From positions 37,431 through 101,430 of the forward strand of contig CACAMI010000003.1 in the NCBI GenBank assembly GCA_902533625.1: DNA of 64,000 nucleotides. The letters run 5' to 3'. Positions 7,848-38,418 of this stretch are shown here, piece after piece. This DNA comes from an uncultured Alphaproteobacteria bacterium (GTDB lineage Bacteria > Pseudomonadota > Alphaproteobacteria > Rhodobacterales > Rhodobacteraceae). Positions within the stretch are counted from its first letter, which is position 1, and each line of letters begins with the position of its first letter. A program made the position numbers and the translations under genes. Below the pieces are notes generated by a model, which ran no database searches, was not told the origin of the DNA, and worked only from the letters and a program-made list of their open reading frames with translations.

Positions 7848-9001
7848 TGGTAGATAAAACTTTTTTACACTGGCCATTTTTTGGTGATGATCATCGAGAT
7901 GTGCGATTACGATTAAAGGAATTTATTTCAAGGGAACTTTGCGTAGTCGATCATGGTAATATAGATCAGGCTTGCAAAAAATTAGTGTCAGCCTTAGGAG
8001 GGGCCAATTTTCTAATGTATACAGGTGATCCGACGGGAAAACTAGATGTTCGGACACTTTGCTTGATAAGAGAAACCCTTGCCTATCATGATGGACTAGC
8101 TGATTTTTCTTTTGCCATGCAAGGATTAGGCTCAGGTGCAATATCCTTATATGGATCAGAAGAGCAAAAACAGGAATGGTTGACCAAAACTCGAAATGGA
8201 AAGGCGATAGCAGCGTTTGCGCTGACTGAACCTCAGTCTGGATCTGATGTTGCAAATTCTACTATGACCGCCATAAAGGACGGAAACCAATTTGTCTTGA
8301 ATGGTGAAAAAACTTGGATATCTAATGGAGGTATTGCGGACTTTTATACAGTCTTTGCTAGGACAGGTGAGGGACCGGGGGCAAAGGGGTTGTCTGCTTT
8401 TATTGTTACTCCCGAGGTTCAGGGCTTTGATGTTATTGAACGCTTAGAAACAATTGCTCCACATCCCCTGGCCCGATTGAAATTTTCTGATTGTAGGATC
8501 CCTGCGACTTCAATGATTGGAGAGGCTGGTGAGGGTTTTAAAATTGCTATGTCAGTTCTGGATATTTTTAGATCTTCTGTCGGTGCGGCTGCACTTGGCT
8601 TTGCCCGCCGAGCTCTTGATGCTACCCTTGCCCGTGTGGAAAGTCGTGAAATCCAAGGTTCAAAATTATCAGAAATGCAAATGATACAGGCTCATATCGC
8701 TGACATGGCAATAGCGATTGATACTAGTGCACTCTTAGTTTACCGGGCGGCTTGGGCAAAGGATCAGGGCCAGGACCGTATAACGCGAGAGGCAGCAATG
8801 GCCAAATTCCATGCAACAGAGGAGGCACAAAAAGTTATTGATATGGCGGTTCAAATTCATGGTGGTGATGGAGTTAAGAGCGGTTTTTTGGTTGAAAAAC
8901 TTTACCGGGAGATACGGGCCCTCCGAATTTATGAGGGTGCAAGCGATGTACAGAAGATTATTATGGCTCGCCAAGTATTAGCAGAAGAGATAGGAGTATA
9001 A
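7847..9001 (+). CDS. Acyl-CoA dehydrogenase
   Basis: ALTEPQSGSD, GEKTWISNG, IHGGDG and YEGASDVQKIIMAR blocks. TAATG overlap with the upstream gene. Confidence 0.85.
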   Translation: MVDKTFLHWPFFGDDHRDVRLRLKEFISRELCVVDHGNIDQACKKLVSALGGANFLMYTGDPTGKLDVRTLCLIRETLAYHDGLADFSFAMQGLGSGAISLYGSEEQKQEWLTKTRNGKAIAAFALTEPQSGSDVANSTMTAIKDGNQFVLNGEKTWISNGGIADFYTVFARTGEGPGAKGLSAFIVTPEVQGFDVIERLETIAPHPLARLKFSDCRIPATSMIGEAGEGFKIAMSVLDIFRSSVGAAALGFARRALDATLARVESREIQGSKLSEMQMIQAHIADMAIAIDTSALLVYRAAWAKDQGQDRITREAAMAKFHATEEAQKVIDMAVQIHGGDGVKSGFLVEKLYREIRALRIYEGASDVQKIIMARQVLAEEIGV

Positions 9002-9004
9002 ATA

Positions 9005-10624: not shown

Positions 10625-10738
10625 ATAATTTGAAATCTTTGCAGATTCGATTAACAAAGATCCTATCGATGTTATTTGGTTTGAAGGAAAATTGAATATG
10701 TATAATTTTGAAGAAAAAAAAATAAATAGGGAGAAAAA

Positions 10739-11887
10739 ATGATTAATAAGACAATTAAAATACTTACAAGTTCAGCTGTTTTAACAGCGACAGCGCTAAC
10801 CAGCTCTGCTTTTGCAGATGTCAAAGTTGGTATGATTACTACACTTTCCGGTGGAGGAGCAGGCTTAGGAATTGATGTGCGCGATGGTTTTATGCTGGCA
10901 ATTAAACAATCTGGACGCACGGATATTGAAGTGGTGATTGAAGACGATCAGCGTAAACCTGATATTGCTGTGCAGTTAGCTGATAAGATGGTACAATCAG
11001 AGAAGGTCGATGTTCTAACAGGCATAATATGGTCAAACCTTGCAATGGCAGTTGTGCCGTCTGTTACCGCTCAAGGAAAATTTTATCTTTCACCAAATGC
11101 TGGTCCGTCAGCTCTAGCAGGCGCTGGTTGCCATAAGAATTACTTTAACGTTGCATGGCAGAATGACAATCTGCATGAAGCGGCGGGTGCTTACGCAAAT
11201 GGTGCAGGACACAAAAATAGCTTCATTCTAGCACCAAACTACCCTGCGGGAAAAGATGCCCTAACGGGTTATAAGCGCTTCTTTTCTGGTGATTTGGCTG
11301 GAGAAATATTTACAAAGCTTGGACAAACGGATTATGCAGCAGAAATAGCCCAAATTCGCGCTTCCAATGCTGACAGTGTATTCTTTTTCCTACCAGGAGG
11401 CATGGGGATTTCTTTTCTTAAGCAATATGCATCTTCTGGTGTGGACCTCCCTGTAGTAGGGCCCGCATTTTCATTTGATCAAGGTATACTGCAAGCAGTA
11501 GGAAGTGCAGCACTGGGTGTAGTGAATACATCTCAATGGAATAAAGATATAGATAATCCAACGAATAATGCCTTTGTGGAAAGCTTCAAAGCTGAATACG
11601 GACGACTACCCTCACTGTATGCGTCTCAGGGTTTTGATACAGCAAATCTACTTATTTCGGCAGTTGCAACTTCCGATGTAAAAGACGCAGACTCCTTCCG
11701 TAAAGCGTTAGAGGCTGCAAATTTTGATTCTACTCGTGGTGATTTTAAGTTCGGATCAAATCATCATCCTGTGCAAACTATATATGCTCGAAAAGTAATC
11801 AAAGAAGGTGATATTTTTACGAACATGATTATAGGTACCGCGCTTGAAAATCATTCGGATGCTTATGCAAAGGAATGTAAATTTTAA
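10739..11887 (+). CDS. ABC transporter periplasmic substrate-binding protein, LivK/branched-chain-amino-acid type (type I PBP)
   Basis: Signal peptide MINKTIKILTSSAVLTATALTSSAFA, then KVGMITTLSGGGAGLG, typical of the Leu/Ile/Val-binding family. Followed by permease and ATPase genes. Confidence 0.85.
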   Translation: MINKTIKILTSSAVLTATALTSSAFADVKVGMITTLSGGGAGLGIDVRDGFMLAIKQSGRTDIEVVIEDDQRKPDIAVQLADKMVQSEKVDVLTGIIWSNLAMAVVPSVTAQGKFYLSPNAGPSALAGAGCHKNYFNVAWQNDNLHEAAGAYANGAGHKNSFILAPNYPAGKDALTGYKRFFSGDLAGEIFTKLGQTDYAAEIAQIRASNADSVFFFLPGGMGISFLKQYASSGVDLPVVGPAFSFDQGILQAVGSAALGVVNTSQWNKDIDNPTNNAFVESFKAEYGRLPSLYASQGFDTANLLISAVATSDVKDADSFRKALEAANFDSTRGDFKFGSNHHPVQTIYARKVIKEGDIFTNMIIGTALENHSDAYAKECKF

Positions 11888-11900
11888 ATTATAACAAATG

Positions 11901-11921
11901 GGTGCAGCTAATAGCTGCACC
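11901..11921 (+). promoter_or_regulatory. Perfect intercistronic stem-loop after the binding-protein gene
   Basis: GGTGCAGCT-AAT-AGCTGCACC, a 9-bp perfect stem with a 3-nt loop, 14 nt after the stop at 11887 and 19 nt before the permease ATG. No T-tract follows. Confidence 0.6.
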
Positions 11922-11939
11922 CAAACCTGTGGTGTTTTC

Positions 11940-12860
11940 ATGTCTTTTGCGCTTTTTGCTGAACAGGTATTAAACGGCCTGCAATCGGGAATTATGCTCT
12001 TTGTAATGGCTGCAGGCTTAACATTGATTTTTGGTGTGATGGGATTGATAAACCTTGCACATGGCTCCCTCTACATGGTTGGTGCATTTGCTGCTGCAGC
12101 TGCTGCAGCTTGGACAGGTTCCTTTCTTTTGGCTCTCGTAGCCGCTCTTACAGGTGCAGCGTTGGTTGGCATGTTTGTAGAAATGCTCGTCATTAGAAGA
12201 CTTTATGATCGTGATCATCTTGATCAGGTGCTGGCAACTTTCGCACTAATTCTAATTTTCTCCGAAGGAACAAGGTTTTTCTTCGGCTCTTTTCCACTCT
12301 TTCTGGATGTACCAAAAGTTATCGCTGGTCCAATTAATTTGCCGATTGGCATTGAATATCCGGTTTACCGACTAATTATTATAGGAGTTGGGCTTTGCGT
12401 AGCACTTGGCCTTTGGCTCTTGATTTCAAAAACAAGGTTGGGAGTTCAAATCCGTGCGGGGAAAAATGACCGTGAGATGATCGCTGCTTTGGGTGTTAAT
12501 ATTTCAGCTCTGTATACTTTTGTTTTTGCTATTGGAGCAGGTCTTGCTGGTCTGGCTGGTGCTTTGGTAGGAGCCATTCAATCGGTTCAGGTAGGAATGG
12601 GTGAACCAGTCTTAATCCTTGCTTTCGTTGTAATCGTAATTGGCGGAATAGGTTCGATAAAAGGGGCATTTATCGGTGCTATATTAGTAGGGTTGACTGA
12701 CACACTTGGGGGAATCTTTTTACCGGAGCTTTTTAAACTCTTTATGGAGGGTTCAATTGCTACCTCTCTGGGATCAGCACTTGCATCAATGTTAATCTAT
12801 ATATTAATGGCTGTTATTTTGGTTTGCCGTCCTCAAGGGTTATTTGGAGTGCAAGGATGA
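11940..12860 (+). CDS. ABC transporter permease, LivH-like
   Basis: N-terminus MSFALFAEQVLNGLQSGIMLF is typical of LivH. Multi-TM and hydrophobic. The ATG at 11940 is in frame with the longer track ORF. Confidence 0.85.
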   Translation: MSFALFAEQVLNGLQSGIMLFVMAAGLTLIFGVMGLINLAHGSLYMVGAFAAAAAAAWTGSFLLALVAALTGAALVGMFVEMLVIRRLYDRDHLDQVLATFALILIFSEGTRFFFGSFPLFLDVPKVIAGPINLPIGIEYPVYRLIIIGVGLCVALGLWLLISKTRLGVQIRAGKNDREMIAALGVNISALYTFVFAIGAGLAGLAGALVGAIQSVQVGMGEPVLILAFVVIVIGGIGSIKGAFIGAILVGLTDTLGGIFLPELFKLFMEGSIATSLGSALASMLIYILMAVILVCRPQGLFGVQG

Positions 12861-13846
12861 TATTAACCCGTGAGAATATACTAAATTTCGTAATAACAGC
12901 TGGACTGATTTTAGTGCCAATTTATGCGGTTATAGTGGAGGAGCCATTTACCATTACATTGGCAACCCGTGCTGTGATCTTCTCACTAGCCGCTGTCGGT
13001 CTCAATATTGCATTGGGCCTTGGTGGGATGGTTAGTCTTGGCCATGCTGTATTCTTCGGCCTTGGTGGATACACAATGGGTATCCTTGCCTTTCATGCTC
13101 AAAGCTACATCCCATTATTCGAGTGGCCAATTTTGATTGAAGGGACAAAGCAGATGCTTGTCGTCTGGCCACTGGCTATGATAATTTCAGCCATAGCTGC
13201 ATTTGTTATTGGTTTGTTATCGCTACGTACGGGCGGTGTATATTTCATTATGATCACCCTGGCTTTTGGTCAGATGTTTTTTTTCTTTTCTATCTCTTGG
13301 TCAGCTTATGGTGGTGAGGACGGTTTATCTATTTATGTGCGAAATCAATTCCCGCTCGTCAACACACTCGTGCCAATACAATTTTATGCTATTTGTTTAG
13401 CTATTCTAATGTTGGCTCTTTGGATTAATGCTCGGCTTGCAAAATCTTCTTTCGGCTTGGCCCTAAGTGCGGCTCGGCAAAATACTGAACGTGTCCGGAA
13501 TGTAGGTTTGGATCCTACAAGTATCAAATTGGTAGCATTTGTGATTTCAGGAGCAATAACAGGGCTTGCTGGCGCTTTATTTGCTGACCTTAACCGGTTT
13601 GTCAGTCCTACAATGTTCAGTTGGCAGCTCTCAGGTGAGATTATGGTTTTCATTATTATTGGTGGAATAGGAAGACTTTACGGACCCGTATTAGGGGCAA
13701 TTATCTTTGTAACTCTCGAGCATTTTTTAGGTGGAATATCGGAATATTGGTTGGTATTTTTAGGGCTTCTTTTGCTATTAATTGTTCTTTTTAGTCGTGG
13801 AGGTCTGGTTGGACTACTGGTTGGGCGGGAGCGTGTCCATGAATAA
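12857..13846 (+). CDS. ABC transporter permease, LivM-like
   Basis: Hydrophobic multi-TM protein with LGLGGMVSLGHAVFFGLGGY. ATGA overlap with the LivH-like stop. Confidence 0.85.
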   Translation: MILTRENILNFVITAGLILVPIYAVIVEEPFTITLATRAVIFSLAAVGLNIALGLGGMVSLGHAVFFGLGGYTMGILAFHAQSYIPLFEWPILIEGTKQMLVVWPLAMIISAIAAFVIGLLSLRTGGVYFIMITLAFGQMFFFFSISWSAYGGEDGLSIYVRNQFPLVNTLVPIQFYAICLAILMLALWINARLAKSSFGLALSAARQNTERVRNVGLDPTSIKLVAFVISGAITGLAGALFADLNRFVSPTMFSWQLSGEIMVFIIIGGIGRLYGPVLGAIIFVTLEHFLGGISEYWLVFLGLLLLLIVLFSRGGLVGLLVGRERVHE

Positions 13847-14588
13847 AACGATTCTAAAAACCTATAATTTAACCAAGAATTTTGGAGCGCTACGCGCCAG
13901 TGATAAAATATCTATTGACCTCCGCGTGGGTGAAATTCATGGATTGATTGGACCAAATGGAGCTGGAAAAACTACTTTGATAGCACAGATTATGGGTGGT
14001 TTGAAACCCGACTCTGGTTTGATTGAATTTGATGGCACCGATATTACTTCCTTTACAACGGAGTCGAGAGCGCAGGCTGGTCTTGGGCGCACCTTTCAAA
14101 TCTCCCAATTGGCCATGGACCAAACTGTTTTGCAAAATGTAGTCCTTGGAACAGTAGGTGAAAGGGGGGGTGTTTGGAACTTTTGGCGACCCGTCTTGGC
14201 AATTCAGGAGTTGCGAGAGCGCGCAATGGAGTCTCTCTCTGATGTAGGGCTAGCTGACAAGGCGGCAACACCCGTTTCTGAACTTAGCCACGGCGGGCGA
14301 AGGCAGTTAGAAGTTGCCATTGCCCTGACCTTAAATCCCAAAGCATTCGTAATGGACGAACCTATGGCAGGTCTTGGTAGTGATGGGTCAAAAAAAATGA
14401 CAATTTTTCTTGATAACTTGCGTACTCGAGCACCAATATTGCTTGTAGAGCATGATATGGAAGCTGTTTTTGCATTGTCAGATCGTATTTCGGTTTTAGT
14501 GTCCGGTATGGTGATCGCAACGGGCAGCGTGGATCAAATAAGAAATGATGCGCGCGTGCGGAAGGCATATCTTGGAGAGGGTTCATGA
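13839..14588 (+). CDS. ABC transporter ATP-binding protein, LivG-like
   Basis: Walker A GPNGAGKTT, signature LSHGGRRQLE, Walker B FVMDEP. The start overlaps the LivM-like stop by 8 nt. Confidence 0.9.
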   Translation: MNKTILKTYNLTKNFGALRASDKISIDLRVGEIHGLIGPNGAGKTTLIAQIMGGLKPDSGLIEFDGTDITSFTTESRAQAGLGRTFQISQLAMDQTVLQNVVLGTVGERGGVWNFWRPVLAIQELRERAMESLSDVGLADKAATPVSELSHGGRRQLEVAIALTLNPKAFVMDEPMAGLGSDGSKKMTIFLDNLRTRAPILLVEHDMEAVFALSDRISVLVSGMVIATGSVDQIRNDARVRKAYLGEGS

Positions 14589-15274
14589 CATTATTACTAT
14601 TGGAAAATGTTACTGCAAGTTATGGAAAGGCCCAAGCACTTTTTGATGTTAACTTAAACCTGAAGGAGGGTGAGCTTATGGCATTGATGGGGCGAAATGG
14701 AATGGGGAAATCTACGACCGTAAAGGTGATAATGCGTATGTTAAGGGGCACAGGAAATTTACTATTCGAGGGTAGAGATATTATGGGTCTACCCAGCCAT
14801 CGTGTTGCCCAAATGGGTCTAGGACTAGTTCCTGAGGGGCGCCGATGTTTTAGAGATCTTACGGTGGCTGAAAATCTAAGTGCGTCAGCGCGTTTGGGAT
14901 ATTGGAGCCTTCCACGGATTTTTGAATTGTTTCCTCGCTTGGGAGAACGACAGGTGCAAGTTGCAGACTCACTATCTGGCGGCGAGCAGCAAATGCTTTC
15001 TATTGGGCGTGCGTTGATGACAAATCCTCGTCTTTTAATACTAGATGAGGCAACTGAAGGGCTTGCACCAATCGTTCGTCAGGAAATTTGGGTTGCAATT
15101 GGTAAGTTAAAGGCAGAGACAGGAATTGCGATTCTGCTAATTGATAAATCCATAAAAGAACTCCGTGAGATTTGTGATTCTGCTACATTAATCGAACGTG
15201 GAAAAACAGTTTGGACGGGTTCTATGAAGAGTTTGGACTCACAAACCCTCGATAGATATGTAGGGGTGTCCTGA
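14585..15274 (+). CDS. ABC transporter ATP-binding protein, LivF-like
   Basis: Walker A GRNGMGKST, signature LSGGEQQML, Walker B LILDEAT. ATGA overlap with the upstream gene. Confidence 0.9.
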   Translation: MTLLLLENVTASYGKAQALFDVNLNLKEGELMALMGRNGMGKSTTVKVIMRMLRGTGNLLFEGRDIMGLPSHRVAQMGLGLVPEGRRCFRDLTVAENLSASARLGYWSLPRIFELFPRLGERQVQVADSLSGGEQQMLSIGRALMTNPRLLILDEATEGLAPIVRQEIWVAIGKLKAETGIAILLIDKSIKELREICDSATLIERGKTVWTGSMKSLDSQTLDRYVGVS

Positions 15275-15986: not shown

Positions 15987-16910
15987 TTAATCAGGAACCT
16001 CTCCCCCGTTTTCTAACCAATACCGACAGTCAAAACTTAGGGATTTTTTTGTTGCAGCCTCGTAAAGCTGTAACTCTTCCTCTGCTAGTAAATCTCTCCA
16101 TCTACCATTTATTCCTTCATTTAAAAAAGTCTTGCCCCCCCCTTTCCAACTATTGCCACCATCTGGTACATATGAGTCTGCATTAGCCCGCATTGCCTCA
16201 AAACTTATAGAGTTTTGCACATTTTTTATTTCATCTGATGTAATTTCAATCTCTAAAAAGGATGCTACTTTCTTTATACAAGAAAACAGATCCTTTTTCA
16301 TATCAGCATAGTGAAGAAAAATGATATTAGGTAAATCTCTATAATCCCACCAAGACTGCACTCCGCTTAGATGAGACCAAAAAGGATAACCGTCATTCTC
16401 CCAATCAAACCAGCCTTTTGTGCACCAGTTTCTCCAAAAAATCTTAAAATTTGCGGGTGGATTAGGAAACTTATCACCCACTAAATTTGGCAGATTATTA
16501 ATACTCTCGTAAACAGCATCTGTATAGTTTAGGTAGTGGTTCCATATCGATAAAGCCACATCTCTTCCATCTCGGCCCACATAAATATATTTAATTTTGG
16601 GGAAAAATGATAAGGCATTTAAGGGAAGATGGGTTTTCAGAAAGCGTCTATGTTTCTGTTGATTTATTTCCTTCATTACTAATTCAATTGGAACACTTCT
16701 GTCATCAATCCATGGACTTAGCTCTGAAACTTTTTTTGGGAATTTATTATTAGGAAATAATAAATGGGCAACAAGAGCCTGAGTCCAAGTGGTGCCAGTC
16801 TTCATAGTTGAAGCGATACAAATGTCGTCTACCCGTGGTTCATAGGTTAACCACCTTTCACTGTCTATATGGTGGTTTTGATAAATTATATCTTTACTCG
16901 GATAATCCAT
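15987..16910 (-). CDS. Cytosolic-type (Sulfotransfer_1) PAPS-dependent sulfotransferase, copy A
   Basis: 5'-PSB loop MKTGTTWTQ, catalytic-His block LKTHLP, RDGRDVALS, and a 3'-PB-like NEGINGRWRDL. Confidence 0.8.
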   Translation of the reverse strand: MDYPSKDIIYQNHHIDSERWLTYEPRVDDICIASTMKTGTTWTQALVAHLLFPNNKFPKKVSELSPWIDDRSVPIELVMKEINQQKHRRFLKTHLPLNALSFFPKIKYIYVGRDGRDVALSIWNHYLNYTDAVYESINNLPNLVGDKFPNPPANFKIFWRNWCTKGWFDWENDGYPFWSHLSGVQSWWDYRDLPNIIFLHYADMKKDLFSCIKKVASFLEIEITSDEIKNVQNSISFEAMRANADSYVPDGGNSWKGGGKTFLNEGINGRWRDLLAEEELQLYEAATKKSLSFDCRYWLENGGEVPD

Positions 16911-19680: not shown

Positions 19681-20604
19681 ATGTCTTGCTTTAATCTGGA
19701 AGATGCCCCCATTCGTCGTTATCAGCATTTGGACTGGGATTCAGGACGCTGGACTGGTTTCAAACCTAGGTCGGGTGATATCTATATTTGCACTTGTTAT
19801 AAATCAGGTACTACATGGACACAAATGATTGCAGCACTTCTCGTATTCCAAGAATTGGACTTCCCATTGCCTTTGAACGAATTATCTCCTTGGATTGATT
19901 TGGTGACGGATAGTACTGAAGAAATGCATAAAAGATTATCGGCTCAGAAGTATAGACGAATCTTGAAAACGCATACTCCCCTTGACGGGTTAAAATGGCA
20001 TGCTGATGCAAGATATCTATTTGTTGGGCGTGATCCACGAGATGTATTTGTTTCTATGATGAACCATCAAGATAATACGGATGTGCATGTTGAACGTAAA
20101 CTAGCTGCGGAAATGGGGAATCAGATAACGATCACTGATCTATTGGCAGATACGGAAGAGGAGCGGTTGAAGGATTGGTTGACTAGGGGTTACTTCGAAT
20201 GGGATAAAGATGGTTATCCCTATTGGTCTTTATTGCATCACGGGGAAACCTTTTGGCAGCATCGCAATCAGGAAAACATTCTAGTCCTTCATTACGGTGA
20301 AATGAAAAATGATCTGAATCGCGAAATGCGAAAAATTGCTGCGCACCTTTCTATAGAGATAGACGAAGAAATTTTTCCGGGTCTAGTTGAAGCCGCTAGT
20401 TTTGCATCAATGAAGAGAAACGCGGATGATCTCGCACCTGCGGCAGATGCAAATTTATGGAAGAATAATTCTGAATTCTTTGCAAATGGTACTAATGGTC
20501 AGTGGCAGGATCGCTGGAGTAAAGCAAATCTCCAGAGGTTATACGCTCTCTCTAATGAATACTCCATTGACTACATGGAATGGCTTTTAGAGAAAAAAAA
20601 TTAG
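19681..20604 (+). CDS. Cytosolic-type PAPS-dependent sulfotransferase, copy B
   Basis: YKSGTTWTQ (5'-PSB), LKTHTP (catalytic His), RDPRDVFVS, ANGTNGQWQDRW (3'-PB-like). Colinear along its length with copy A and also 307 aa. Confidence 0.8.
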   Translation: MSCFNLEDAPIRRYQHLDWDSGRWTGFKPRSGDIYICTCYKSGTTWTQMIAALLVFQELDFPLPLNELSPWIDLVTDSTEEMHKRLSAQKYRRILKTHTPLDGLKWHADARYLFVGRDPRDVFVSMMNHQDNTDVHVERKLAAEMGNQITITDLLADTEEERLKDWLTRGYFEWDKDGYPYWSLLHHGETFWQHRNQENILVLHYGEMKNDLNREMRKIAAHLSIEIDEEIFPGLVEAASFASMKRNADDLAPAADANLWKNNSEFFANGTNGQWQDRWSKANLQRLYALSNEYSIDYMEWLLEKKN

Positions 20605-20654: not shown

Positions 20655-21464
20655 TTATATCTTTTTGAAGTCTCCGTGCCTACCTGCACCTTCAGAAAAA
20701 CGCTTAGCACCTTTGAGGCCTTCATTTTCAATAGCCTGGAGGCCATGTTCCCACTCAAACTCAAGCCCTTGTCGAACCGACATTCCGTGAGTTGCAATAA
20801 TAGAAGCTCGATCAGCTCGAACTGCTTCCTGAGGAAAGCGGGCAATTTCGTTCGCTATTTCTTCAGCTATTTTGCGCGCCTGGCCTTCCGGAGTAATCCT
20901 TTCACATAAACCTATCTGATAACATTCATCGGCAGGCACTTTCCGGCCAGTCATAGCAATTTCAAGTGCCTTACCTTGTCCAACCAATCGTGGCAAACGA
21001 ACTGTTCCACCATCTACCAAGGTAATGCCCCATCTTCGGCAATAAACTCCAAGGTAAGCATTCTTAGCCATTACTCGCATGTCGCACCACATTGCCAACT
21101 CCATACCTCCTGCAACTGCGGCACCTTCTATTGCACCTATTACTGGTTTTGTAAGTTCCAACCTAGTTGGGCCTAAACCACCTCTCGGAGTGGGTGTGCC
21201 ATCCTTAGGAAATGAAAGAGATTCAAATTCTGATTTGAATTTTTCTTCGTTGGCCAGAGAAGCAGCATACTTCAAATCCCAACCAGAGCAAAAATTACCT
21301 CCCTCTCCCCATAATACTGCGGTACGAGCCATGGCGTCGTTTTCGAATTCCATAAATGCATCCATTAAAGCTTGAGCAGACTCTGGATCCATTCCGTTCC
21401 TTACTTCTGGACGAGAATGGATAACGGTCCATACATGAAGTTTTTTTTCAATTCTCACAGACAT
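20655..21464 (-). CDS. Enoyl-CoA hydratase/isomerase (crotonase) family protein
   Basis: AIEGAAVAGGMELAMWCDMRV core. Strong AGGAGG SD before the ATG at 21464. Confidence 0.8.
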   Translation of the reverse strand: MSVRIEKKLHVWTVIHSRPEVRNGMDPESAQALMDAFMEFENDAMARTAVLWGEGGNFCSGWDLKYAASLANEEKFKSEFESLSFPKDGTPTPRGGLGPTRLELTKPVIGAIEGAAVAGGMELAMWCDMRVMAKNAYLGVYCRRWGITLVDGGTVRLPRLVGQGKALEIAMTGRKVPADECYQIGLCERITPEGQARKIAEEIANEIARFPQEAVRADRASIIATHGMSVRQGLEFEWEHGLQAIENEGLKGAKRFSEGAGRHGDFKKI

Positions 21465-21688
21465 TTCTCTCCTCCTTTAGTGGCTGACATTTGGCTCCAA
21501 GTATCTTTCTAAAAGTGCTGTTTTAATAAAAGGTTTCTTAAAATTACCATATGCCATTAATAATCTAATGAAATTTTTAGTGTGTAAATCAAATTTTTTA
21601 TCTTAATCCGATCAAATATATATAGTATAATTAATGAACTCTGATAGTATTTGATGATTAATATAGAAATCTTAGGGGTAGAGTGAAT

Positions 21689-22924
21689 ATGGTTTTAATT
21701 CCCGAAATGCCAGCTGTTGGACGTGGTTTCATTAGTCGGTTAGAACCACCTAATATTGAAGAATATTCTTGGATAAGTCCTAAGGCTTCTAAGGATCGTA
21801 GGGTTTCCGTGGTTTCAACAGCAGCAGTCTCAAACCGTGGAGAGAAACCTTTCTCTTGGTTGGCGAGAGATTATAGGACAATTAAAAAAAACGATAGAGA
21901 TTTGGTAATGACCCATGTTGCTGCTGAGTATGATCGTACTGCATGGCAACAAGATTTAAATACAATTATACCCTTAGACCGGTTGGAAGAAATGGCTTCT
22001 GAAAGGGAGATTGGATCGGTAGCTGAAAATCATTATGCTTTTATGGGTGCTGCTGACCCCCGTGATATGGAAAAATATGCTCTAGAAGTAGCAGGGAAAA
22101 TGAAGCAAGAAGCTGTAGATACAGTTTTTCTTGTTCCCGTCTGACCATTTTGTACGCGCGCCGTGTGCGGGCTCGCCCACATATTTGAATCTCAAGGTTT
22201 TTCTACGGTTCTTGTCGGCTTTGTCAGGGAACATATCGAGGTAATTAAGCCTCCACGAGGTTTGTGGTTAAACTTTCCGATGGGACGTCCTATGGGAAAG
22301 CCCAATGACCCAAAATATCAAAAGAAAGTAATTCGTGCAGCTTTTAATTTACTTGAAGCAAAATCAGGACCAGTTCTTGAAGATTTTCCAGATGAAATTC
22401 CTGTAAAACATGGAAGGATGGGTTATGCACTTCCGGTAGATCTAGTAACTAAAGTAAGTGAAATTGGTGACGTTGATCAATTATTGGAAGAAGTAGAGGC
22501 TGAGGTTTCAAGCCTTCACTCAGCTTATGTAAGTGGAAAAGCCTTTCGTGGAAGAACTACAGTAGGAGCTAGTGAAATGCCTATAAAAGAACTTCCTAAT
22601 TTCATAGCTGCTTTTGTAAAGGGGCAGAAACCGAACAGTCCAAGAAAAGGTGTTACAGCTATCCCTCAGCTTAAGCTGGTGGTGGAGGATTTGAACGCCT
22701 ATTACACTGAGGCAAGAATGTACGAAGACAATATTGACGATTTTGAAATTCTTGGTAAGTGGTTTTGGGAAGAGTCGAAGGCTGGAAAATTAATTTTGGC
22801 TTTAGAAGCAGTTTCTTTAGAGAGTGAGGATAAAGTTCTTCGGCAGATAGTGGAAATGTCCCTAATTACTCCCCGGTTTTGGTCTGAAGGCCCTCTTCCT
22901 GGCACTTCTGCTTCCGGATGGTAA
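21689..22924 (+). CDS. Glycine/sarcosine/betaine/D-proline reductase protein-B (GrdB/PrdB) family protein with an in-frame TGA (22142-22144), predicted selenocysteine, in a U-P-F-C motif
   Basis: Track ORFs 21683..22144 and 22163..22924 share a frame and are separated by only one stop (TGA). Read-through gives ...AVDTVFLVPV-U-PFCTRAVCGLAHIFESQGFSTVLVGF.... A GC-rich hairpin follows the TGA. Confidence 0.65.
22145..22185 (+). promoter_or_regulatory. Candidate bacterial SECIS hairpin downstream of the in-frame TGA
   Basis: Locally GC-rich CGCGCGCCGTGTGCGGGCTCGCCCAC in an AT-rich genome. Pairing 22163-22167 with 22178-22182 and 22169-22170 with 22176-22177, bulged C22168, 5-nt loop GCTCG about 27-31 nt after the TGA. 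Folded by eye only. Confidence 0.4.
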
Positions 22925-22948
22925 AAATAAAAAACTTGCCCATGCAAG
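22923..22948 (-). terminator. Weak rho-independent terminator candidate for the rhodanese gene (between convergent genes)
   Basis: The minus strand reads CTTGC-ATGG-GCAAG followed by TTTTTTATTTTT. The stem is only 5 bp. Confidence 0.35.
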
Positions 22949-22968
22949 CTTTGAAACTTTGCTAATTG

Positions 22969-23862
22969 CTACAATTTATCTGTTTCTATAGGAAGGGTTT
23001 CATCCATTGCCCATTCACTCATAGAATTGTCATAAATCTGCAAGTTTTTAAATCCTAGCTGATAAAGAATAAAAGCATCGAGAGTAGCCGCTATCCCTCC
23101 TCCGCAGTAATTTAAAATTGTCTTGTCCGAAGAAATATCCATTGAATTAAAGATTTCAGCAGCCTCCTCTGGTTTTTTGAACTTACCTGTATTAGAGTCT
23201 ACAAGCTTATGAAAAGGAATATTCAAACTATTAGGTATTCTTCCGGGGCGGCCATATCTTGGATTTTCACCTGAATGGATATCTTTTGTTAATGCATTTA
23301 AAAGTATGCAGGACTTGTCCCCTATGGCCTTAAGAGTAGATTCCTTTCCGACAAAAATATTTTCTCTAAAGCTAGTGTTAAATTTTGCAGGATTAAATTT
23401 TCGGACACTATCTTCAGTTGGTAAGTCTAATCTGACCCACTCATCATATCCGCCATCCAATACAGAAATTTTTTCAAACCCCAATACAAAAAGCATCCAC
23501 CAAACCCGTGTTGCCCATTGCGTACCATTTCTAGAATATAAGACAATGTGAAAAGGATCGCCAACGCCTAGATTTTGAAACCTATTTTTTAGATCTAAGA
23601 AGCCTGGTAAAGTGAAACTATAGGGGCTTTCTTTTTTGGACAGATCATTCTGAAGATCTAAGAATGCAGAGCCAGGAATATGTGACTCTCTATATTTGGA
23701 AATACCACTTTCGACATCGTACGGTTTGCTAGGATCTTTGTCCCTATATAATAGGTAGGTTGTGCAGTCGAATACTCGAATGTTTTCATTATCAAGTCTC
23801 TTAGAGAGCCATTCACACTGTACGATATTCTCAGGATATTTCCATGTAACATCATTTTCCAT
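22969..23862 (-). CDS. Two-domain rhodanese sulfurtransferase (thiosulfate/3-mercaptopyruvate sulfurtransferase, SseA-like)
   Basis: 297 aa with tandem rhodanese domains. The active-site loop CGGGIAA in the C-terminal domain resembles the MST-type CG[SG]G[VI]TA. Confidence 0.8.
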   Translation of the reverse strand: MENDVTWKYPENIVQCEWLSKRLDNENIRVFDCTTYLLYRDKDPSKPYDVESGISKYRESHIPGSAFLDLQNDLSKKESPYSFTLPGFLDLKNRFQNLGVGDPFHIVLYSRNGTQWATRVWWMLFVLGFEKISVLDGGYDEWVRLDLPTEDSVRKFNPAKFNTSFRENIFVGKESTLKAIGDKSCILLNALTKDIHSGENPRYGRPGRIPNSLNIPFHKLVDSNTGKFKKPEEAAEIFNSMDISSDKTILNYCGGGIAATLDAFILYQLGFKNLQIYDNSMSEWAMDETLPIETDKL

Positions 23863-25198: not shown

Positions 25199-25288
25199 AA
25201 TTTTCCGAGTGGGATTTATTTTCTTCTAATAAAAAATAATTGCAGTAATATGCATAGCTGTAAATAATATTTTTTGAGATCTTTTATT

Positions 25289-26077
25289 ATGAGTACAGCT
25301 GATTTGGAAAGATTTGTGAATTTAGAGGCCTACCCTCTTCAAAATGTAAAATTTGTTCAGAAATGTAATGAGACTTTAAATATTGAAGGAGCCCTTACGT
25401 TAAAAAATTTTTTGAATGAGGAAACTGTTGAGCAATTGGTGAAGGAAGCCAAAGAAAATCAACATAAGGCCTTTTATTCAAACTCTACGCACAATATTTA
25501 TTTAACGCCACAAGATGAAAATTTTCCTGAGGATCATATTTTTAATACCCAAATAACATCATCAAAAGGATGTATTACAACAGACCAAATTCCTGATTCT
25601 TCGGCTTTGAAAACAATTTATAAATCGGATATTTTCAAGAAATTTATAGCTGAAATAGTAGGTGAAAAAATACTATACGAATATGAAGATCCATTGTCCT
25701 CTATTAACGTACACTATGCGAAAGAAGGTCAAGAACTTGGATGGCATTTTGATAACTCCAGCTTTGCAGTAACACTATTACTTCAGAAACCATTAGGTGG
25801 TGGTATTTTCGAATATGTGAAAAATGTAAGAAACTCTGAATCAGGAGAAATGGGATTTAAAGAAGCAGAAGAAATTGTATCAGGAAGGTCAAAACCCTCT
25901 GTCTTAAATATTGAGCCGGGTACGCTTGTACTTTTCAGAGGAATGAATTCAATGCACAGGGTTACACCAACGGTTGGAGATAGAACTCGCTTTCTGGTAG
26001 TTTTTGCCTATAACGCAAAGCCTGGTGTATCTTTGTCAAAGTCAGCCCAGAAAACTTTTTATGGAAGAGTAGCTTAA
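25289..26077 (+). CDS. 2OG-Fe(II) oxygenase superfamily protein (prolyl-hydroxylase-like fold)
   Basis: HxD in GWHFDNS, distal His in SMHRVTP, and Arg shortly after (GDRTRF). ATG at 25289 within a longer TTG-initiated track ORF. Confidence 0.6.
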   Translation: MSTADLERFVNLEAYPLQNVKFVQKCNETLNIEGALTLKNFLNEETVEQLVKEAKENQHKAFYSNSTHNIYLTPQDENFPEDHIFNTQITSSKGCITTDQIPDSSALKTIYKSDIFKKFIAEIVGEKILYEYEDPLSSINVHYAKEGQELGWHFDNSSFAVTLLLQKPLGGGIFEYVKNVRNSESGEMGFKEAEEIVSGRSKPSVLNIEPGTLVLFRGMNSMHRVTPTVGDRTRFLVVFAYNAKPGVSLSKSAQKTFYGRVA

Positions 26078-26083
26078 AAGTTG

Positions 26084-27400
26084 CTAATCACCAGGTATCC
26101 AACTTGTACCTGCCAGAGGGACACCAGACATTGCCGCGGCCTCTACGGTAAGAGCACAAAGGTCTTCAGGTTCTAAGTTTCTAAGATCGTTTTTTCCACA
26201 TGCCCGAGCAATAGTCTGTGCCTCCATCGTCATTACTTTAAGAAAATTTGCTAGACGCCTTCCTCCTTCAACAGGATTTAATCTTTTCATTAACTTAGGA
26301 TTCTGAGTCGTGATCCCAGCAGGGTCATTACCTTCATGCCAATCGTCGTAAGCTCCTGCTGTTGTTCCCAATTTCTGATAATCTTTCTCAAATTTAGGAT
26401 CATTATCTCCAAGTGCAATTAAGGCGGCTGTACCTATGGAAACTGCATCCGCACCTAGTGCCATAGCTTTTGCAACGTCAGCACCATTTCTAATACCTCC
26501 TGAGACAATTAATTGTACTTTTTTATGAACCCCTAATTCTTGCAAGGCTTCCACTGCTGGCTTTATGCAAGCTAAAGTAGGGATGCCTACATGTTCGATA
26601 AATACTTCCTGGGTAGCCGCAGTTCCTCCTTGCATACCATCAATAACAATTGCATCTGCTCCCGATTTTACTGCTAGTGCAATGTCATAAAAAGGTCTAG
26701 CTGCCGCCACTTTAACCAAAATAGGAACTTTCCATGAAGTTATTTCCCTTAGCTCGAGTATTTTAATTTCCATATCATCAGGTCCAGTCCAATCCGGATG
26801 ACGGCATGGTGAGCGTTGATCTATACCCTTTGGTAATGTCCTCATCTCAGCTACTCTATCACTAATTTTTTGACCGAGAAGCATACCGCCTCCCCCTGGT
26901 TTTGCCCCTTGGCCTACTACTATTTCTATTGCGTCTGCTTTTCTAAGATCGTCCGGGTTCATACCATACCTAGATGGCAATAGTTGATAAATAAGTTTAT
27001 TAGAATGGCCTCGCTCTTCCTTTGTCATCCCCCCATCCCCTGTGGTAGTAGATGTTCCTGCAATTGTAGCGCCTCTTCCAAGAGCTTCCTTTGCTCGGCC
27101 AGAAAGTGCTCCAAAACTCATCCCTGCTATAGTTATAGGAATATCAAGGTGAAGAGGATTTTCTGCATTTTTATCACCAATTGTCACCTTTGTATTACAG
27201 GACTCTCTATAACCTTCCAAGGGGTAGCGGGATATTGAAGCTCCAAGAAAAAGCAAATCGTCAAAATGTGGGAGACGTCTCTTTGATCCGCCACCTCTGA
27301 TATCATATATACCCGTTTGAGCAGCTCGCCGGATTTCTGAATTGGTATATTTATCGAAGAGATTTGACTGTCTAGGGAAAGTTTGGGGTAACTTAGTCAT
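26084..27400 (-). CDS. FMN-binding glutamate-synthase-domain protein (GltB central domain homologue; MgsC/GlxD-type)
   Basis: 438 aa. GQGAKPGGGG, PDDMEIKILELRE, VIDGMQGGTAAT, SGGIRNGADVAKAMALGADAV match the FMN/synthase domain of GltB (compare 51939..56648 in this window). Confidence 0.85.
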   Translation of the reverse strand: MTKLPQTFPRQSNLFDKYTNSEIRRAAQTGIYDIRGGGSKRRLPHFDDLLFLGASISRYPLEGYRESCNTKVTIGDKNAENPLHLDIPITIAGMSFGALSGRAKEALGRGATIAGTSTTTGDGGMTKEERGHSNKLIYQLLPSRYGMNPDDLRKADAIEIVVGQGAKPGGGGMLLGQKISDRVAEMRTLPKGIDQRSPCRHPDWTGPDDMEIKILELREITSWKVPILVKVAAARPFYDIALAVKSGADAIVIDGMQGGTAATQEVFIEHVGIPTLACIKPAVEALQELGVHKKVQLIVSGGIRNGADVAKAMALGADAVSIGTAALIALGDNDPKFEKDYQKLGTTAGAYDDWHEGNDPAGITTQNPKLMKRLNPVEGGRRLANFLKVMTMEAQTIARACGKNDLRNLEPEDLCALTVEAAAMSGVPLAGTSWIPGD

Positions 27401-27410
27401 AAAGTATCTC

Positions 27411-28082
27411 CTAATATGTGTTGTCTATTTTAAAATTGTACAGACTTCTTGCAGATCCATAGCGGCGAAAATCTTTTGAGGAAAGGTTCTTTATTTTTGC
27501 AATTGCTAAAAGTTTTGTGAGTAATTTTTTATGCTTTTCTGTCATTTGTTTTTCAATACAGTCGGCACCAAGAGACTTCACTTCACCTAATATGTAAATA
27601 TTTGCTTCATAAATGCTATCACCCAAAGCTTCCCCTGCATTTCCACAAACTACTAAATTTCCAGCCTGTGCCATAAAAGCCGACATATGACCAACATTTC
27701 CTTGAACGATTATATCTATACCTTTCATTGAAATACCACATCTTGAAGAGGAATTTCCTTCTATAACGAGGGTTCCCCCGTGAGCTGATGCCCCTGCATA
27801 TTGGCTAGCATTACCTTTTACATATATACTTCCTGACATCATATTTTCTGCAACACCAGGTCCTACCGACCCGTGAACTACAACATCTGCATTTTTATTC
27901 ATCCCCCCACAGTAATATCCAACGCTTCCCTTAATATCCACTTTTAGTGATTCCCTTAGACCAGCAGCTACTGCATGCTTTCCCATGGGGTTTTCTAATA
28001 CCCAGCTTGTTTCAGATGAGGCATTCTGCAAGGCAGAATTTACGTGTCTAAGCGAAAGTGATTTTAAATCCAAAACAGTCAT
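27411..28082 (-). CDS. GXGXG-motif protein (GltB C-terminal beta-helix domain homologue; MgsB/GlxC-type)
   Basis: 223 aa with repeated G-x-x-G-x-G-x-G beta-helix turns (GSVGYYCGGGM.., HGSVGPGVAENM, GNASQYAGASAHGG, GNVGHMSAFMAQAG). Confidence 0.8.
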   Translation of the reverse strand: MTVLDLKSLSLRHVNSALQNASSETSWVLENPMGKHAVAAGLRESLKVDIKGSVGYYCGGMNKNADVVVHGSVGPGVAENMMSGSIYVKGNASQYAGASAHGGTLVIEGNSSSRCGISMKGIDIIVQGNVGHMSAFMAQAGNLVVCGNAGEALGDSIYEANIYILGEVKSLGADCIEKQMTEKHKKLLTKLLAIAKIKNLSSKDFRRYGSARSLYNFKIDNTY

Positions 28083-28981
28083 TTATTATGTTCCCAAAAA
28101 TAAACTGTTGCTGGTTCTGGTTCCCATACTTTTGCTTTTTCAATGTATGGCAAAGAAGCCAAAGCTCTATATTCAGAGCCAAAAGCAACGTATTGATCTG
28201 TCTCGGCCAGTACTGCTGGTTTACATGCTATGGGATCTCTGAGTACGCCAAATCCTTTTTCAGTACCAACAACAAAAGTATAAAAGCCATCTAAATCTTT
28301 TAGAGCTAAGTCGAGTGCTTGTCCAAGATCGGCGCCTGTGCTCATTTTGTTAGTCAAGTAGGAGGCTGCAACTTCTGTATCATTTTCCGTCTCGAATGAA
28401 ATATTTTTTTTCTGGAGTTCGCGTCTGAGGGTATTATGATTAGATAAAGAACCATTATGAACCAGACATTGATCTTTGCCAGTTGAAAATGGGTGCGCTC
28501 CTAAAGTAGTTACAGCTGATTCAGTAGCCATTCTAGTGTGGCCGATTCCATGAGATCCCCTCATTTTTCTAATATTAAACCGCTCCACAACACTTTCTGG
28601 AGCTCCTACTTCTTTGTAGATTTCAATATTTGATCCTGTACTCATAAGCCTGATTTTTGGAAAGTGTTTCTTTAGATCATTGATGATTAAATTTGAATTC
28701 TTTTCCGAAAGCTCCAAAACCGCATGGGTAGAGTTAATCTTAAGTTGTGTTTTAAGATTTTTCTGCTTGGAGAGATATGAATTCAATTTTGGGAAGCCGT
28801 CTGAGGGTTCTTCTGACTGAAGGGTGACTTTAATTTTATTACCATTACTTTTTTTGTAAACAGCTACTCCCGCGCTATCAGGTCCACGGTCACTCATAAT
28901 AACCAACATATCAGAAAGAAGTTTACCTAAACTATCTTCTACCGACCGTGTTTTAGCAAATAAACCAACTATTCCACACAT
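28079..28981 (-). CDS. Class II (Ntn) glutamine amidotransferase-domain protein (MgsA/GlxB-type)
   Basis: MCGIVGLF N-terminus (the Cys1 nucleophile requires the start at 28981). GGAG SD 7 nt upstream. HTRMATES and HNGSLSNH blocks. 4-nt overlap with the GXGXG gene. Confidence 0.85.
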   Translation of the reverse strand: MCGIVGLFAKTRSVEDSLGKLLSDMLVIMSDRGPDSAGVAVYKKSNGNKIKVTLQSEEPSDGFPKLNSYLSKQKNLKTQLKINSTHAVLELSEKNSNLIINDLKKHFPKIRLMSTGSNIEIYKEVGAPESVVERFNIRKMRGSHGIGHTRMATESAVTTLGAHPFSTGKDQCLVHNGSLSNHNTLRRELQKKNISFETENDTEVAASYLTNKMSTGADLGQALDLALKDLDGFYTFVVGTEKGFGVLRDPIACKPAVLAETDQYVAFGSEYRALASLPYIEKAKVWEPEPATVYFWEHNK

Positions 28982-29029
28982 ATATTTCTCCAAAAAGGGA
29001 TTAGCAAATAAGTATTTATAAGCTTTATA

Positions 29030-36898: not shown

Positions 36899-37043
36899 TA
36901 GTTTCCTTAGTCTCAGATTATTTTTCAAATGTAACTTATAGTTCTATCCATAAAACTGACAAAGGAATAATAGTTTTATTTTGGTCCATAAGAGAATTTA
37001 TTCCTTGAAATGCAAAATTTAGTGTAATACCTTCTAGCAAAGT

Positions 37044-38403: not shown

Positions 38404-38418
38404 CAATGGGAGTAACGA

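What the first reader, a model, noticed from the sequence alone, without database searches (positions are those of the whole stretch)
21689..22924. A single in-frame TGA joins two ORFs into one GrdB/PrdB-family protein with a U-x-x-C motif: probable selenocysteine recoding
Track ORFs 21683..22144 and 22163..22924 are in the same reading frame, and the only stop between them is the TGA at 22142-22144. Read-through gives ...EAVDTVFLVPV-[TGA]-PFCTRAVCGLAHIFESQGFSTVLVGFVREH..., which places the TGA in a U-P-F-C redox-type motif followed by T-R. Both halves resemble the glycine/sarcosine/betaine/D-proline reductase protein B family. Its clostridial members carry Sec in a UxxC context at what I believe is the equivalent position; that is my recollection, not an alignment. 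The downstream ORF alone would need a GTG start with no SD 18 nt after the stop, and the upstream ORF alone would be a truncated domain. A standard gene caller would split or truncate this gene.
Basis: partly seen in the sequence, partly recalled or inferred. Interest (0 to 1): 0.8.

Follow-up and report, generated by a model that had tools for sequence, protein, structure and literature searches.

The report
Known marine PrdB-like selenoprotein gene
The in-frame TGA is very probably a selenocysteine codon with its own RNA hairpin signal, but this protein family was published as a marine selenoprotein in 2005 and 2008; what remains open is its function, since it is probably not a proline reductase.

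Summary
Window 21689..22924 (+) is one reading frame with a single in-frame TGA at 22142-22144. All the sequence evidence points to a selenocysteine codon. The TGA is kept in all 19 homologous loci of the Sec form (34-98% protein identity). Full-length homologues carry Cys in that column (CPxC[TS]R). Synonymous divergence falls from about 0.5 to 0.05 in the eight codons after the TGA. That stretch forms a 6-bp hairpin (22156-22172) with an invariant GU at +22/+23, and 5 of its 6 pairs show compensatory changes. TGA is an ordinary stop for 11 of 54 genes in the window.

It is not new. The supplements of Zhang et al. 2005 (Sargasso Sea) and 2008 (GOS) list this same family (VPVuPFCTRAV...PRFWSEGPLPGTSGSGW) as 'Proline reductase PrdB'. 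The window protein is 70% identical to their entry AACY01016836.

The PrdB name is doubtful. The protein scores 87 bits against a cutoff of 300. It has an extra ~190-aa helical domain with no known relative. No PrdA or other prd/grd gene lies in the window or in any locus examined. Gene callers still split the gene. A sister Cys clade is fused or adjacent to a TauD dioxygenase, which is a lead to function. The selABCD genes could not be checked.

The parts
21689..22924 (+). Complete selenoprotein gene: 411 codons plus stop, ATG at 21689, Sec codon 152, TAA at 22922-22924
   Evidence: Single frame with one internal TGA. It aligns end to end with full-length Cys-form homologues of about 415 aa. 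It is 70% identical over 274 aa, without gaps, to the published Sargasso selenoprotein AACY01016836.
22142..22144 (+). UGA read as selenocysteine (U152 of the U-P-F-C motif)
   Evidence: TGA is conserved in all 19 related Sec-form loci that cover the site: L001-L011, L013, L014, L016-L020. The column is Cys in P0241, P0251, P0264, P0267 and P0253. TGA is otherwise a normal stop in this window, ending 11 of 54 genes.
22156..22172 (+). SECIS-type hairpin: 5' arm 22156-22161, loop 22162-22166 (CGUGU, with invariant G22 U23 at 22163-22164), 3' arm 22167-22172, and a G.G mismatch at the third pair (22158 with 22170)
   Evidence: On 19 sequences 92.6% of cells are paired against 74.8% in shuffles (0 of 500 shuffles reach it). 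Five of 6 pairs show changes on both sides, and slid controls reach at most 67.6%. Synonymous divergence is 0.05 here against about 0.5 gene-wide. The codons used are rare in this genome, with a joint probability of about 3e-5. Covariance model R1 hits only the TGA sites of Sec forms.
21782..22357 (+). PrdB/GrdB-like alpha/beta domain (residues ~32-223), spanning the Sec codon
   Evidence: TIGR04483 PrdB E=1.6e-24, residues 32-223 against profile positions 25-219 of 238. Pfam GRDB PF07355 E=1.3e-8, residues 77-149 against profile positions 272-345 of 347. In the AlphaFold model of the Cys homologue, the CxxC lies between strand 149-153 and the start of helix 157-172.
22361..22921 (+). Family-specific C-terminal helical domain (residues ~225-411), absent from PrdB and GrdB
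   Evidence: No Pfam or NCBIfam hit. The AlphaFold model is a helical bundle with pLDDT 83.9. Foldseek finds no PDB match at E<=0.001.
22163..22165 (+). GTG that the ORF listing takes as the start of a separate 253-aa ORF, and where the ~253-aa database fragments begin; it is actually Val159 and the invariant GUG of the SECIS loop
   Evidence: It is invariant in all 19 aligned sequences as part of the loop. The codons between the TGA and this GTG (PFCTRA) are conserved as protein.
22931..22952 (.). Hairpin between the convergent selenoprotein and rhodanese genes, a possible shared terminator
   Evidence: The terminator-like site was called on the minus strand only, and the count is no higher than in shuffles, so this is weak evidence.

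Best explanation
Window 21689..22924 is one gene for a 411-residue selenoprotein. The ribosome reads UGA at 22142 as selenocysteine. A small hairpin 12 nt downstream (22156-22172, loop CGUGU) is inferred to recruit SelB carrying Sec-tRNA(Sec), as in the E. coli fdhF paradigm. The product belongs to the marine family published as 'Proline reductase PrdB' (Zhang et al. 2005, 2008). It consists of a PrdB/GrdB-like alpha/beta domain with U152-x-x-C155 at the start of a helix, followed by a helical domain found only in this family. By analogy with PrdB and GrdB, the likely chemistry is nucleophilic attack by the selenolate on a small substrate, resolution by Cys155 to a selenenylsulfide, and re-reduction by a cellular dithiol. 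The protein works without a pyruvoyl PrdA or GrdE partner, so it is probably not a D-proline reductase. Shown here: the recoding signature, the hairpin and the family identity. Inferred: SelB dependence and the catalytic cycle. Unknown: the substrate.
For: There is a single in-frame TGA. It is conserved in independent assemblies from 98% down to 34% protein identity. Full-length homologues have Cys in that column: VPTCPHCTR, LPVCPSCTR, VPVCPNCSR, TPVCPMCTR. The synonymous pairwise difference is 0.4-0.67 along the gene but 0.05 at codons +2 to +9. The hairpin covaries, with 5 of 6 pairs compensatory, 92.6% of cells paired, and G22 U23 invariant. Cys forms with the same CTRAV peptide use other codons and lack the hairpin. 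Covariance model R1 scores Sec sites at 51-61 bits, Cys sites at 21 bits or less, and the rest of the window at 10 bits or less. TGA is a normal stop in this genome, and the SECIS codons are rare ones. The same family is listed as a selenoprotein in the supplements of PMC1088965 and PMC2398784, and the window protein is 70% identical to AACY01016836. The PrdB HMM alignment is colinear, and C. difficile PrdB has its Sec at U151.
Against: No selA, selB, selD or tRNA-Sec gene lies in the 64-kb window, and the rest of the genome could not be searched. The minimum-free-energy fold of the single sequence picks a different hairpin and is not significant against shuffles, z = -0.24. The window's clade has a G.G mismatch in the stem. 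No Rfam SECIS family matches. There is no protein-level evidence of Se incorporation for this family in the literature read here. Residue-level alignment to an authentic PrdB sequence was not done; only HMM coordinates were compared.
Confidence: 0.92

Rival explanations
1. There are two separate genes: a 151-153-aa N-terminal protein ending at the TGA and a 253-aa protein starting at GTG 22163, forming a split two-subunit enzyme.
For: This is how ORF listing splits the frame, and the gene calls on related loci give 115-168-aa and 241-253-aa ORFs. All 120 best database hits are 251-254 aa.
Against: The six codons between the TGA and the GTG (PFCTRA) are invariant as protein. There is no Shine-Dalgarno sequence before the GTG. 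The GTG is the invariant loop of a covarying hairpin. Cys-form homologues are single continuous proteins of about 415 aa. The split would cut the alpha/beta domain between a strand and the helix that carries the redox motif.
Confidence: 0.03
2. The gene is a pseudogene, or the TGA is a sequencing or assembly error that interrupts a Cys (TGT/TGC) codon.
For: A single-base change from TGT or TGC gives TGA, and Cys forms of the family exist.
Against: The same TGA is found in many independent assemblies and metagenomes across 34-98% protein identity, and in Sanger reads from 2004-2007. Both halves remain under purifying selection, with about 70% amino-acid identity and saturated synonymous sites. 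A dedicated RNA element co-occurs with the TGA and is absent from Cys forms.
Confidence: 0.01
3. The UGA is read through without the Sec machinery, either as Trp/Gly under an alternative genetic code or by near-cognate suppression that the hairpin stimulates.
For: One database homologue (P0131) was translated with W at this position. The sel genes could not be shown for this genome.
Against: TGA ends 11 of 54 genes in the window, so the standard code applies. Homologues have Cys in this column, not Trp or Gly. The hairpin has SECIS geometry with GU at +22/+23, which from my own knowledge matches G23 U24 of E. coli fdhF. The organism is a Paracoccaceae-type alphaproteobacterium, a group that from my own knowledge has no reported code reassignment.
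Confidence: 0.04

Closest known systems
Marine 'Proline reductase PrdB' selenoprotein family of Zhang, Fomenko & Gladyshev 2005 (Sargasso Sea, 42 genes) and Zhang & Gladyshev 2008 (GOS, 235 Sec and 110 Cys forms)
   Same: The motif VFL[VI]P[VI]-U-PFCTRAV is the same, as is the C-terminus ...ITPRFWSEGPLPGTS.SGW. The window protein is 70% identical over 274 aa to AACY01016836, and the RNA after the UGA is the same.
   Different: Nothing material differs; this is an orthologue in a Paracoccaceae-type MAG. Three results were not found in the parts of those papers read here: covariation support for the hairpin, the two-domain architecture, and the absence of PrdA.
D-proline reductase subunit PrdB of Clostridioides difficile and C. 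sticklandii (TIGR04483)
   Same: The alpha/beta domain is homologous (E=1.6e-24). The UxxC motif carries Sec at a near-identical position, U151 against U152. The inferred chemistry is a selenolate nucleophile with a resolving Cys.
   Different: The score is 87 bits against a cutoff of 300. The protein is 411 aa rather than about 240, with an extra helical domain. No prdA, prdH, prdC, prdDE or prdF gene lies nearby in the window or in any of the 27 fetched loci. The host is an aerobic marine alphaproteobacterium, not a Stickland fermenter.
Glycine/sarcosine/betaine reductase protein B (GrdB/GrdF/GrdH; Pfam PF07355, TIGR01918)
   Same: The Pfam GRDB domain hit is above the gathering score (35 against 22 bits), and the match ends 3 residues before the Sec codon.
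   Different: The score is below the TIGR01918 subfamily cutoff (42.5 against 65.45). The N-terminal ~220 residues of GrdB are missing. No grdA, grdE or grdCD genes are present. The motif is UxxCxxxxC rather than the UxxCxxC cited for GrdB in PMC13188914.
E. coli fdhF-type bacterial SECIS
   Same: The hairpin sits inside the coding sequence directly after the UGA, and the apical loop has GU about 20 nt from the UGA. Here that is G22 U23. From my own knowledge it is G23 U24 in fdhF, and a non-Watson-Crick position in the stem lies where fdhF has the bulged U17.
   Different: The stem is only 6 bp. The sequence is unrelated, and no Rfam family matches. Binding to SelB was not tested.

Membership tests
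Bacterial selenoprotein gene (UGA-Sec with SECIS) | In-frame UGA with conserved coding sequence on both sides | tested here: met
   the TGA is conserved in 19 loci, and both flanks are conserved as protein.
Bacterial selenoprotein gene (UGA-Sec with SECIS) | Cys-containing homologues with Cys aligned to the UGA | tested here: met
   P0241, P0251, P0264, P0267 and P0253 have C in that column.
Bacterial selenoprotein gene (UGA-Sec with SECIS) | Stem-loop immediately downstream of the UGA with a conserved G(U) in the apical loop | tested here: met
   One search gives covariation (5 of 6 pairs, 92.6% paired). One search shows G22 and U23 invariant. One search shows the drop in synonymous divergence.
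Bacterial selenoprotein gene (UGA-Sec with SECIS) | Genome encodes selA, selB, selC (tRNA-Sec) and selD | not testable with these tools
   None of these is in the 64-kb window.
Bacterial selenoprotein gene (UGA-Sec with SECIS) | Selenium demonstrated in the protein | not testable with these tools
   This needs 75Se labelling or mass spectrometry.
Published marine 'PrdB' selenoprotein family (Zhang et al. 2005/2008) | End-to-end similarity and the same Sec motif as listed members | tested here: met
   70% identity over 274 of 274 aa with no gaps to AACY01016836. Searches show the motif uPFCTRAV in their supplements.
D-proline reductase PrdB (TIGR04483 equivalog) | Score at or above the curated cutoff (300 bits) | tested here: not met
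   86.7 bits. The Cys homologue P0264 scores 135.9 bits.
D-proline reductase PrdB (TIGR04483 equivalog) | Encoded with prdA (pyruvoyl proprotein) and the other prd genes (PMC11229817) | tested here: not met
   No such genes lie in the window or beside homologues.
D-proline reductase PrdB (TIGR04483 equivalog) | Sec in a UxxC motif at the PrdB position (U151 in C. difficile) | tested here: inconclusive
   Codon 152 here and a colinear HMM alignment (residues 32-223 against profile 25-219) agree within a few residues. No residue-level alignment to an authentic PrdB sequence was made.
D-proline reductase PrdB (TIGR04483 equivalog) | Single-domain protein of about 240 aa | tested here: not met
   The protein is 411 aa with an extra helical domain of about 190 aa.
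GrdB/GrdF/GrdH selenoprotein B (TIGR01918 subfamily) | Score at or above the subfamily cutoff (65.45 bits), with grdA/grdE partners | tested here: not met
   42.5 bits. No grd genes were found in any context.
Pfam GRDB superfamily (PF07355) | Domain hit above the gathering score | tested here: met
   35 bits against 22, covering only residues 77-149 against profile positions 272-345 of 347.

The most novel reading that the evidence does not exclude
The so-called marine PrdB is not a proline reductase. It would be a stand-alone selenol/thiol reductase of aerobic bacterioplankton that works with Fe(II)/2-oxoglutarate (TauD-type) dioxygenases and glutathione- or sulfate-ester-linked enzymes in breaking down a small marine metabolite. 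That would be a new selenoenzyme function that needs no pyruvoyl partner. In the sister Cys clade an orthologous TauD is fused (P0364, P0371, P0375) or lies nearby on the same strand (directly adjacent in L026, one VTT gene away in L021 and L027), with sulfatase, GST and GFA genes recurring close by. The window has TauD, GFA, enoyl-CoA hydratase, sulfotransferase and rhodanese genes within 4 kb, but its TauD belongs to a different subfamily.
Probability: 0.15. Interest if true: 0.65.

Novelty: already known. Interest (0 to 1): 0.22.

Why it matters
As a discovery it adds little, because Sec recoding in this family has been in the literature since 2005. It matters in two practical ways.

First, public annotation still gets the gene wrong. 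All 120 closest database entries are ~253-aa 'hypothetical protein' fragments, and the full-length Cys forms are labelled 'D-proline reductase PrdB'. That label probably misleads metabolic reconstructions of marine bacteria.

Second, the family is one of the most abundant selenoproteins in surface-ocean metagenomes according to the 2005 and 2008 surveys, yet its function is unknown. The results here give concrete starting points for finding the substrate and for correcting annotation pipelines. These are a covarying SECIS that is almost invariant across the family, a two-domain architecture with no solved relative, the absence of PrdA, and a conserved TauD partner in a sister clade.

Tried and rejected
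1. Single-sequence folding of 22142-22205 gave an insignificant z-score (-0.24) and an alternative hairpin, G11-C27 with loop CGC. I rejected that hairpin in favour of the 15-20/26-31 hairpin, which covaries across subfamilies.

2. A sequence search of the PDB found nothing at E<=10. Foldseek searches of the full-length model and of the C-terminal domain model found nothing at E<=0.001. Structure therefore gave no functional transfer.

3. Rfam gave no SECIS or other family at the site, at either the gathering or a permissive threshold.

4. A scan of the window for other TGA-interrupted frames, to show Sec use in this organism, found none convincing.

5. A search for sel genes or PrdA/GrdA/GrdE/PrdC/thioredoxin partners covered 51 window ORFs and found none. 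The gcvTHP and gltBD-like ORFs were identified by reading only.

6. Conserved synteny for the window's clade: neighbours are shared only within the same species, and the ~70% relatives share none. Guilt by association therefore fails for this clade. I also rejected the idea that the window's TauD is the orthologue of the fused TauD, since it is only 26% identical.

I worked around this with the post-TGA piece and a Cys-form homologue.

8. Two attempts to retrieve the source contig through an exact-match protein failed.

9. I did not obtain an authentic clostridial PrdB or GrdB sequence, so the Sec-column test against them rests on HMM coordinates and the published U151.

Full report
**Observation**

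Window 21689..22924 (+) translates as one frame of 411 sense codons. It has a single internal stop, the TGA at 22142-22144 (codon 152), in the context ...AVDTVFLVPV-TGA-PFCTRAVCGLAHIFESQGF.... The ORF listing splits it into 21683..22144 and 22163..22924. The second ORF's GTG lies 18 nt after the TGA with no ribosome-binding sequence before it. Among all TGA-interrupted frames in the 64-kb window, this is the only long one (160 + 259 codons) and the only one with a redox-type motif.

**Is the TGA real and conserved?**

An independent MAG contig (L001, 98% identity) and metagenome contigs from several projects carry the same TGA. So do relatives at 65-72% identity (L002, L003, L007-L011, L016-L018) and at 34-41% identity (L013/L014, L019/L020). 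All have VFL[VI]P[VI]-TGA-PFCTRAV and strong protein conservation on both sides.

In the word-indexed protein search, all 120 best hits were 251-254 aa, which is the downstream fragment only. In the exhaustive representative search most members, even at 30-40% identity, begin just after the TGA position. Gene calls on related contigs show an upstream ORF of 115-168 aa with the Pfam GRDB domain, followed by a 241-253-aa ORF. The split is therefore a family-wide artefact of annotation and not a sequencing error.

**Cys homologues**

The few full-length representatives (P0241, P0251, P0264, P0267; 392-415 aa) and the fragment P0253 have Cys in the TGA column: VPTCPHCTR, LPVCPSCTR, VPVCPNCSR, TPVCPMCTR and VPVCPLCTV. 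The read-through protein aligns continuously with P0264 at 35% identity, with the TGA opposite C156. A profile search with the Cys forms found 860 relatives, many of them full-length at about 415 aa.

**RNA signal**

I aligned codons from 11 distinct sequences of the window's clade. The fraction of synonymous pairwise differences is 0.4-0.67 along the whole gene. It falls to 0.05 at codons +2 to +9 after the TGA, the only such dip. The conserved codons ACG CGC GCC GTG and GGG are each used for only 8-15% of their amino acid in this 38% G+C genome. Their joint probability is about 3e-5. The same RNA, UGACCNUUYUGYACGCGCGCCGUGNGCGGGCU, persists in Sec forms of only 34-41% protein identity. Cys forms with the same C-T-R-A-V peptide use other codons (ACU CGC GCG GUC) and form no such hairpin.

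I added DNA of other published subfamilies from the Sargasso supplement, which gave a 19-sequence alignment.
- A 6-bp hairpin, nt +15-20 pairing with +26-31 and a loop at +21-25, is 92.6% paired, against 74.8% in shuffles (0 of 500 shuffles reach it).
- Five of the 6 pairs show changes on both sides.
- Slid controls reach at most 67.6%.
- G22 and U23 in the loop are invariant.
- The only unpaired cells are a G17.G29 mismatch in the window's clade.

A covariance model built from the alignment hits only the TGA sites of Sec forms, at 51-61 bits. The best hit at a Cys-form site is 21 bits, and nothing else in the window exceeds 10 bits.

In window coordinates, the 5' arm is 22156-22161, the loop 22162-22166 and the 3' arm 22167-22172. 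The GTG 'start' of the second ORF (22163-22165) is the invariant GUG of the loop. The geometry matches the E. coli fdhF-type SECIS, which has GU at +23/+24; that comparison is from my own knowledge. Single-sequence folding alone was uninformative, and no Rfam family matches.

**Genetic code**

TGA ends 11 of 54 genes in the window. The organism is a Paracoccaceae/Rhodobacteraceae-type MAG. A code with TGA as a sense codon is therefore excluded.

**Already known**

Zhang, Fomenko and Gladyshev (2005, PMC1088965) list 'Proline reductase PrdB' (UXXC) as the third most abundant selenoprotein family of the Sargasso Sea, with 42 genes. Zhang and Gladyshev (2008, PMC2398784) count 235 Sec forms and 110 Cys forms in GOS. 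Their supplementary sequence files contain this very family. One example is AACY01016836, 'MKDDAVNTVFLVPVuPFCTRAVSVLAHFFESYGF...ITPRFWSEGPLPGTSGSGW'; others are JCVI_READ_929035 and JCVI_READ_882543. The window protein is 70% identical to AACY01016836 over 274 of 274 residues with no gaps. The Sec recoding is therefore a rediscovery.

**Is it really a PrdB?**

The PrdB equivalog model aligns residues 32-223 but scores 86.7 bits against a cutoff of 300. The selenoprotein-B subfamily model scores 42.5 against 65.45. Only the Pfam GRDB domain passes, at 35 against 22 bits, and its match ends 3 residues before the Sec codon.

C. difficile PrdB is a ~26-kDa protein with an essential Sec at U151. 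It needs the pyruvoyl subunit PrdA and the maturase PrdH (PMC11229817). The position of the Sec agrees (codon 152 here), but nothing else does.
- The protein is 411 aa long.
- Residues ~225-411 match no family.
- No prdA, prdC, prdH, grdA or grdE gene, and no thioredoxin-system gene, lies in the window or next to any homologue examined.

In the window the gene is monocistronic. It diverges from a crotonase gene (20655-21464, -) and converges on a two-domain rhodanese gene (22969-23862, -).

**Structure**

An AlphaFold model of the Cys homologue P0264 is confident (pLDDT 86.7, pTM 0.82). It shows an alpha/beta domain with the CxxC between strand 149-153 and the start of helix 157-172, the usual place for a redox-active pair. 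A helical bundle follows. The window's own C-terminal domain models as a helical bundle with pLDDT 83.9. Neither model has a significant relative in the PDB, and a sequence search of the PDB also found none.

**Function**

Synteny is conserved only within the window's species. Relatives at ~70% identity share no neighbours with the window.

The sister Cys clade around P0264 gives a real lead. Three representatives are fusions in the order PrdB-like then TauD (P0364, P0371, P0375). In L021, L026 and L027 a TauD gene lies close by on the same strand: directly adjacent in L026, and one VTT/DedA gene away in L021 and L027. Each is ~65% identical to the fused TauD domain. Sulfatase, GST and GFA genes recur nearby.

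The window also has TauD, GFA, crotonase, sulfotransferase and rhodanese genes within 4 kb. However, its TauD is only ~26% identical to the fused domain, so the link is not shown for the window's clade.

My working mechanism is a selenolate attack on a small substrate, resolution by Cys155 to a Se-S bond, and re-reduction by a cellular dithiol, with no pyruvoyl partner. This is an inference by analogy with PrdB and GrdB. The substrate is unknown.

**Verdict**

The finding is correct and well supported, with confidence of about 0.9 that the UGA encodes Sec. It concerns a selenoprotein family that is already published. The residual interest lies in three points: the persistent mis-annotation, the doubtful 'proline reductase' name, and the unknown function of an abundant marine selenoprotein.

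Noticed in passing
L024/L025 7001-9127; L021 274-3123; L026 5001-7136; L027 3369-6248: A Cys-form sister clade of the PrdB-like family is fused to a TauD/TfdA dioxygenase (P0364, P0371, P0375; 708-724 aa) or lies close to one on the same strand, directly adjacent in L026 and one VTT gene away in L021 and L027. The nearby TauD genes are ~65% identical to the fused domain. Sulfatase, GST and GFA genes recur nearby.
   Followed up: partly
window 37036-37122 and 37270-41656: A glycine riboswitch aptamer (Rfam RF00504, 54.5 bits) lies upstream of three ORFs. By reading, these look like gcvT, gcvH and gcvP. The gcvP product is in a cluster named glycine dehydrogenase.
   Followed up: partly
window 26084-28993 (-): Three consecutive genes carry the GATase, GXGXG and Glu_synthase/FMN domains of a split GltB. 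From my own knowledge, this arrangement is typical of N-methylglutamate synthase (mgsABC) in methylamine use. A large 1569-aa ORF plus a 478-aa ORF at 51939-58116 looks like the ordinary gltBD pair; those two were not scanned.
   Followed up: partly
window 15987-16910 (-), 19681-20604 (+), 25274-26077 (+): There are two Sulfotransfer_1-family sulfotransferases and a HalD/WelO5-like Fe/2OG halogenase-type protein close to the selenoprotein gene. These are unusual genes for a streamlined marine alphaproteobacterium.
   Followed up: no
window 22969-23862 (-): A two-domain rhodanese converges on the selenoprotein gene and is 45 nt away from it. It resembles 3-mercaptopyruvate sulfurtransferase (154 bits against a cutoff of 250). 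This adjacency is conserved only within the species.
   Followed up: partly
P0131 (156-aa database protein): One database homologue has Trp at the Sec position (VFLVPVWPFCTRAV). It was presumably called under a genetic code with TGA as Trp. This is another way the gene gets mis-annotated.
   Followed up: no
window 720-1658 (-), 59218-60420 (+), 47025-49648 (-): The window holds tryptophan 2,3-dioxygenase, kynureninase, homogentisate 1,2-dioxygenase and fumarylacetoacetase genes, so aromatic amino-acid catabolism genes are scattered through it.
   Followed up: no
window 7008-15274 (+): A run of crotonase, acyl-CoA dehydrogenase and AMP-binding ligase genes is followed by a branched-chain-type ABC transporter. 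From my own knowledge, the enzyme set recalls dmdD/dmdC/dmdB of DMSP demethylation. This was not tested.
   Followed up: no
Sargasso supplement sequences AACY01424071, AACY01202822, AACY01353529: Other short PrdB/GrdB-like subfamilies (LVPSuGLCNQT, LVPNuPVCHQT) place a hairpin of the same geometry, with loop GU at +22/+23, after their UGA. Their stems differ in sequence (CCAGAC/GUCUGG). The SECIS geometry therefore seems shared across the whole superfamily.
   Followed up: partly
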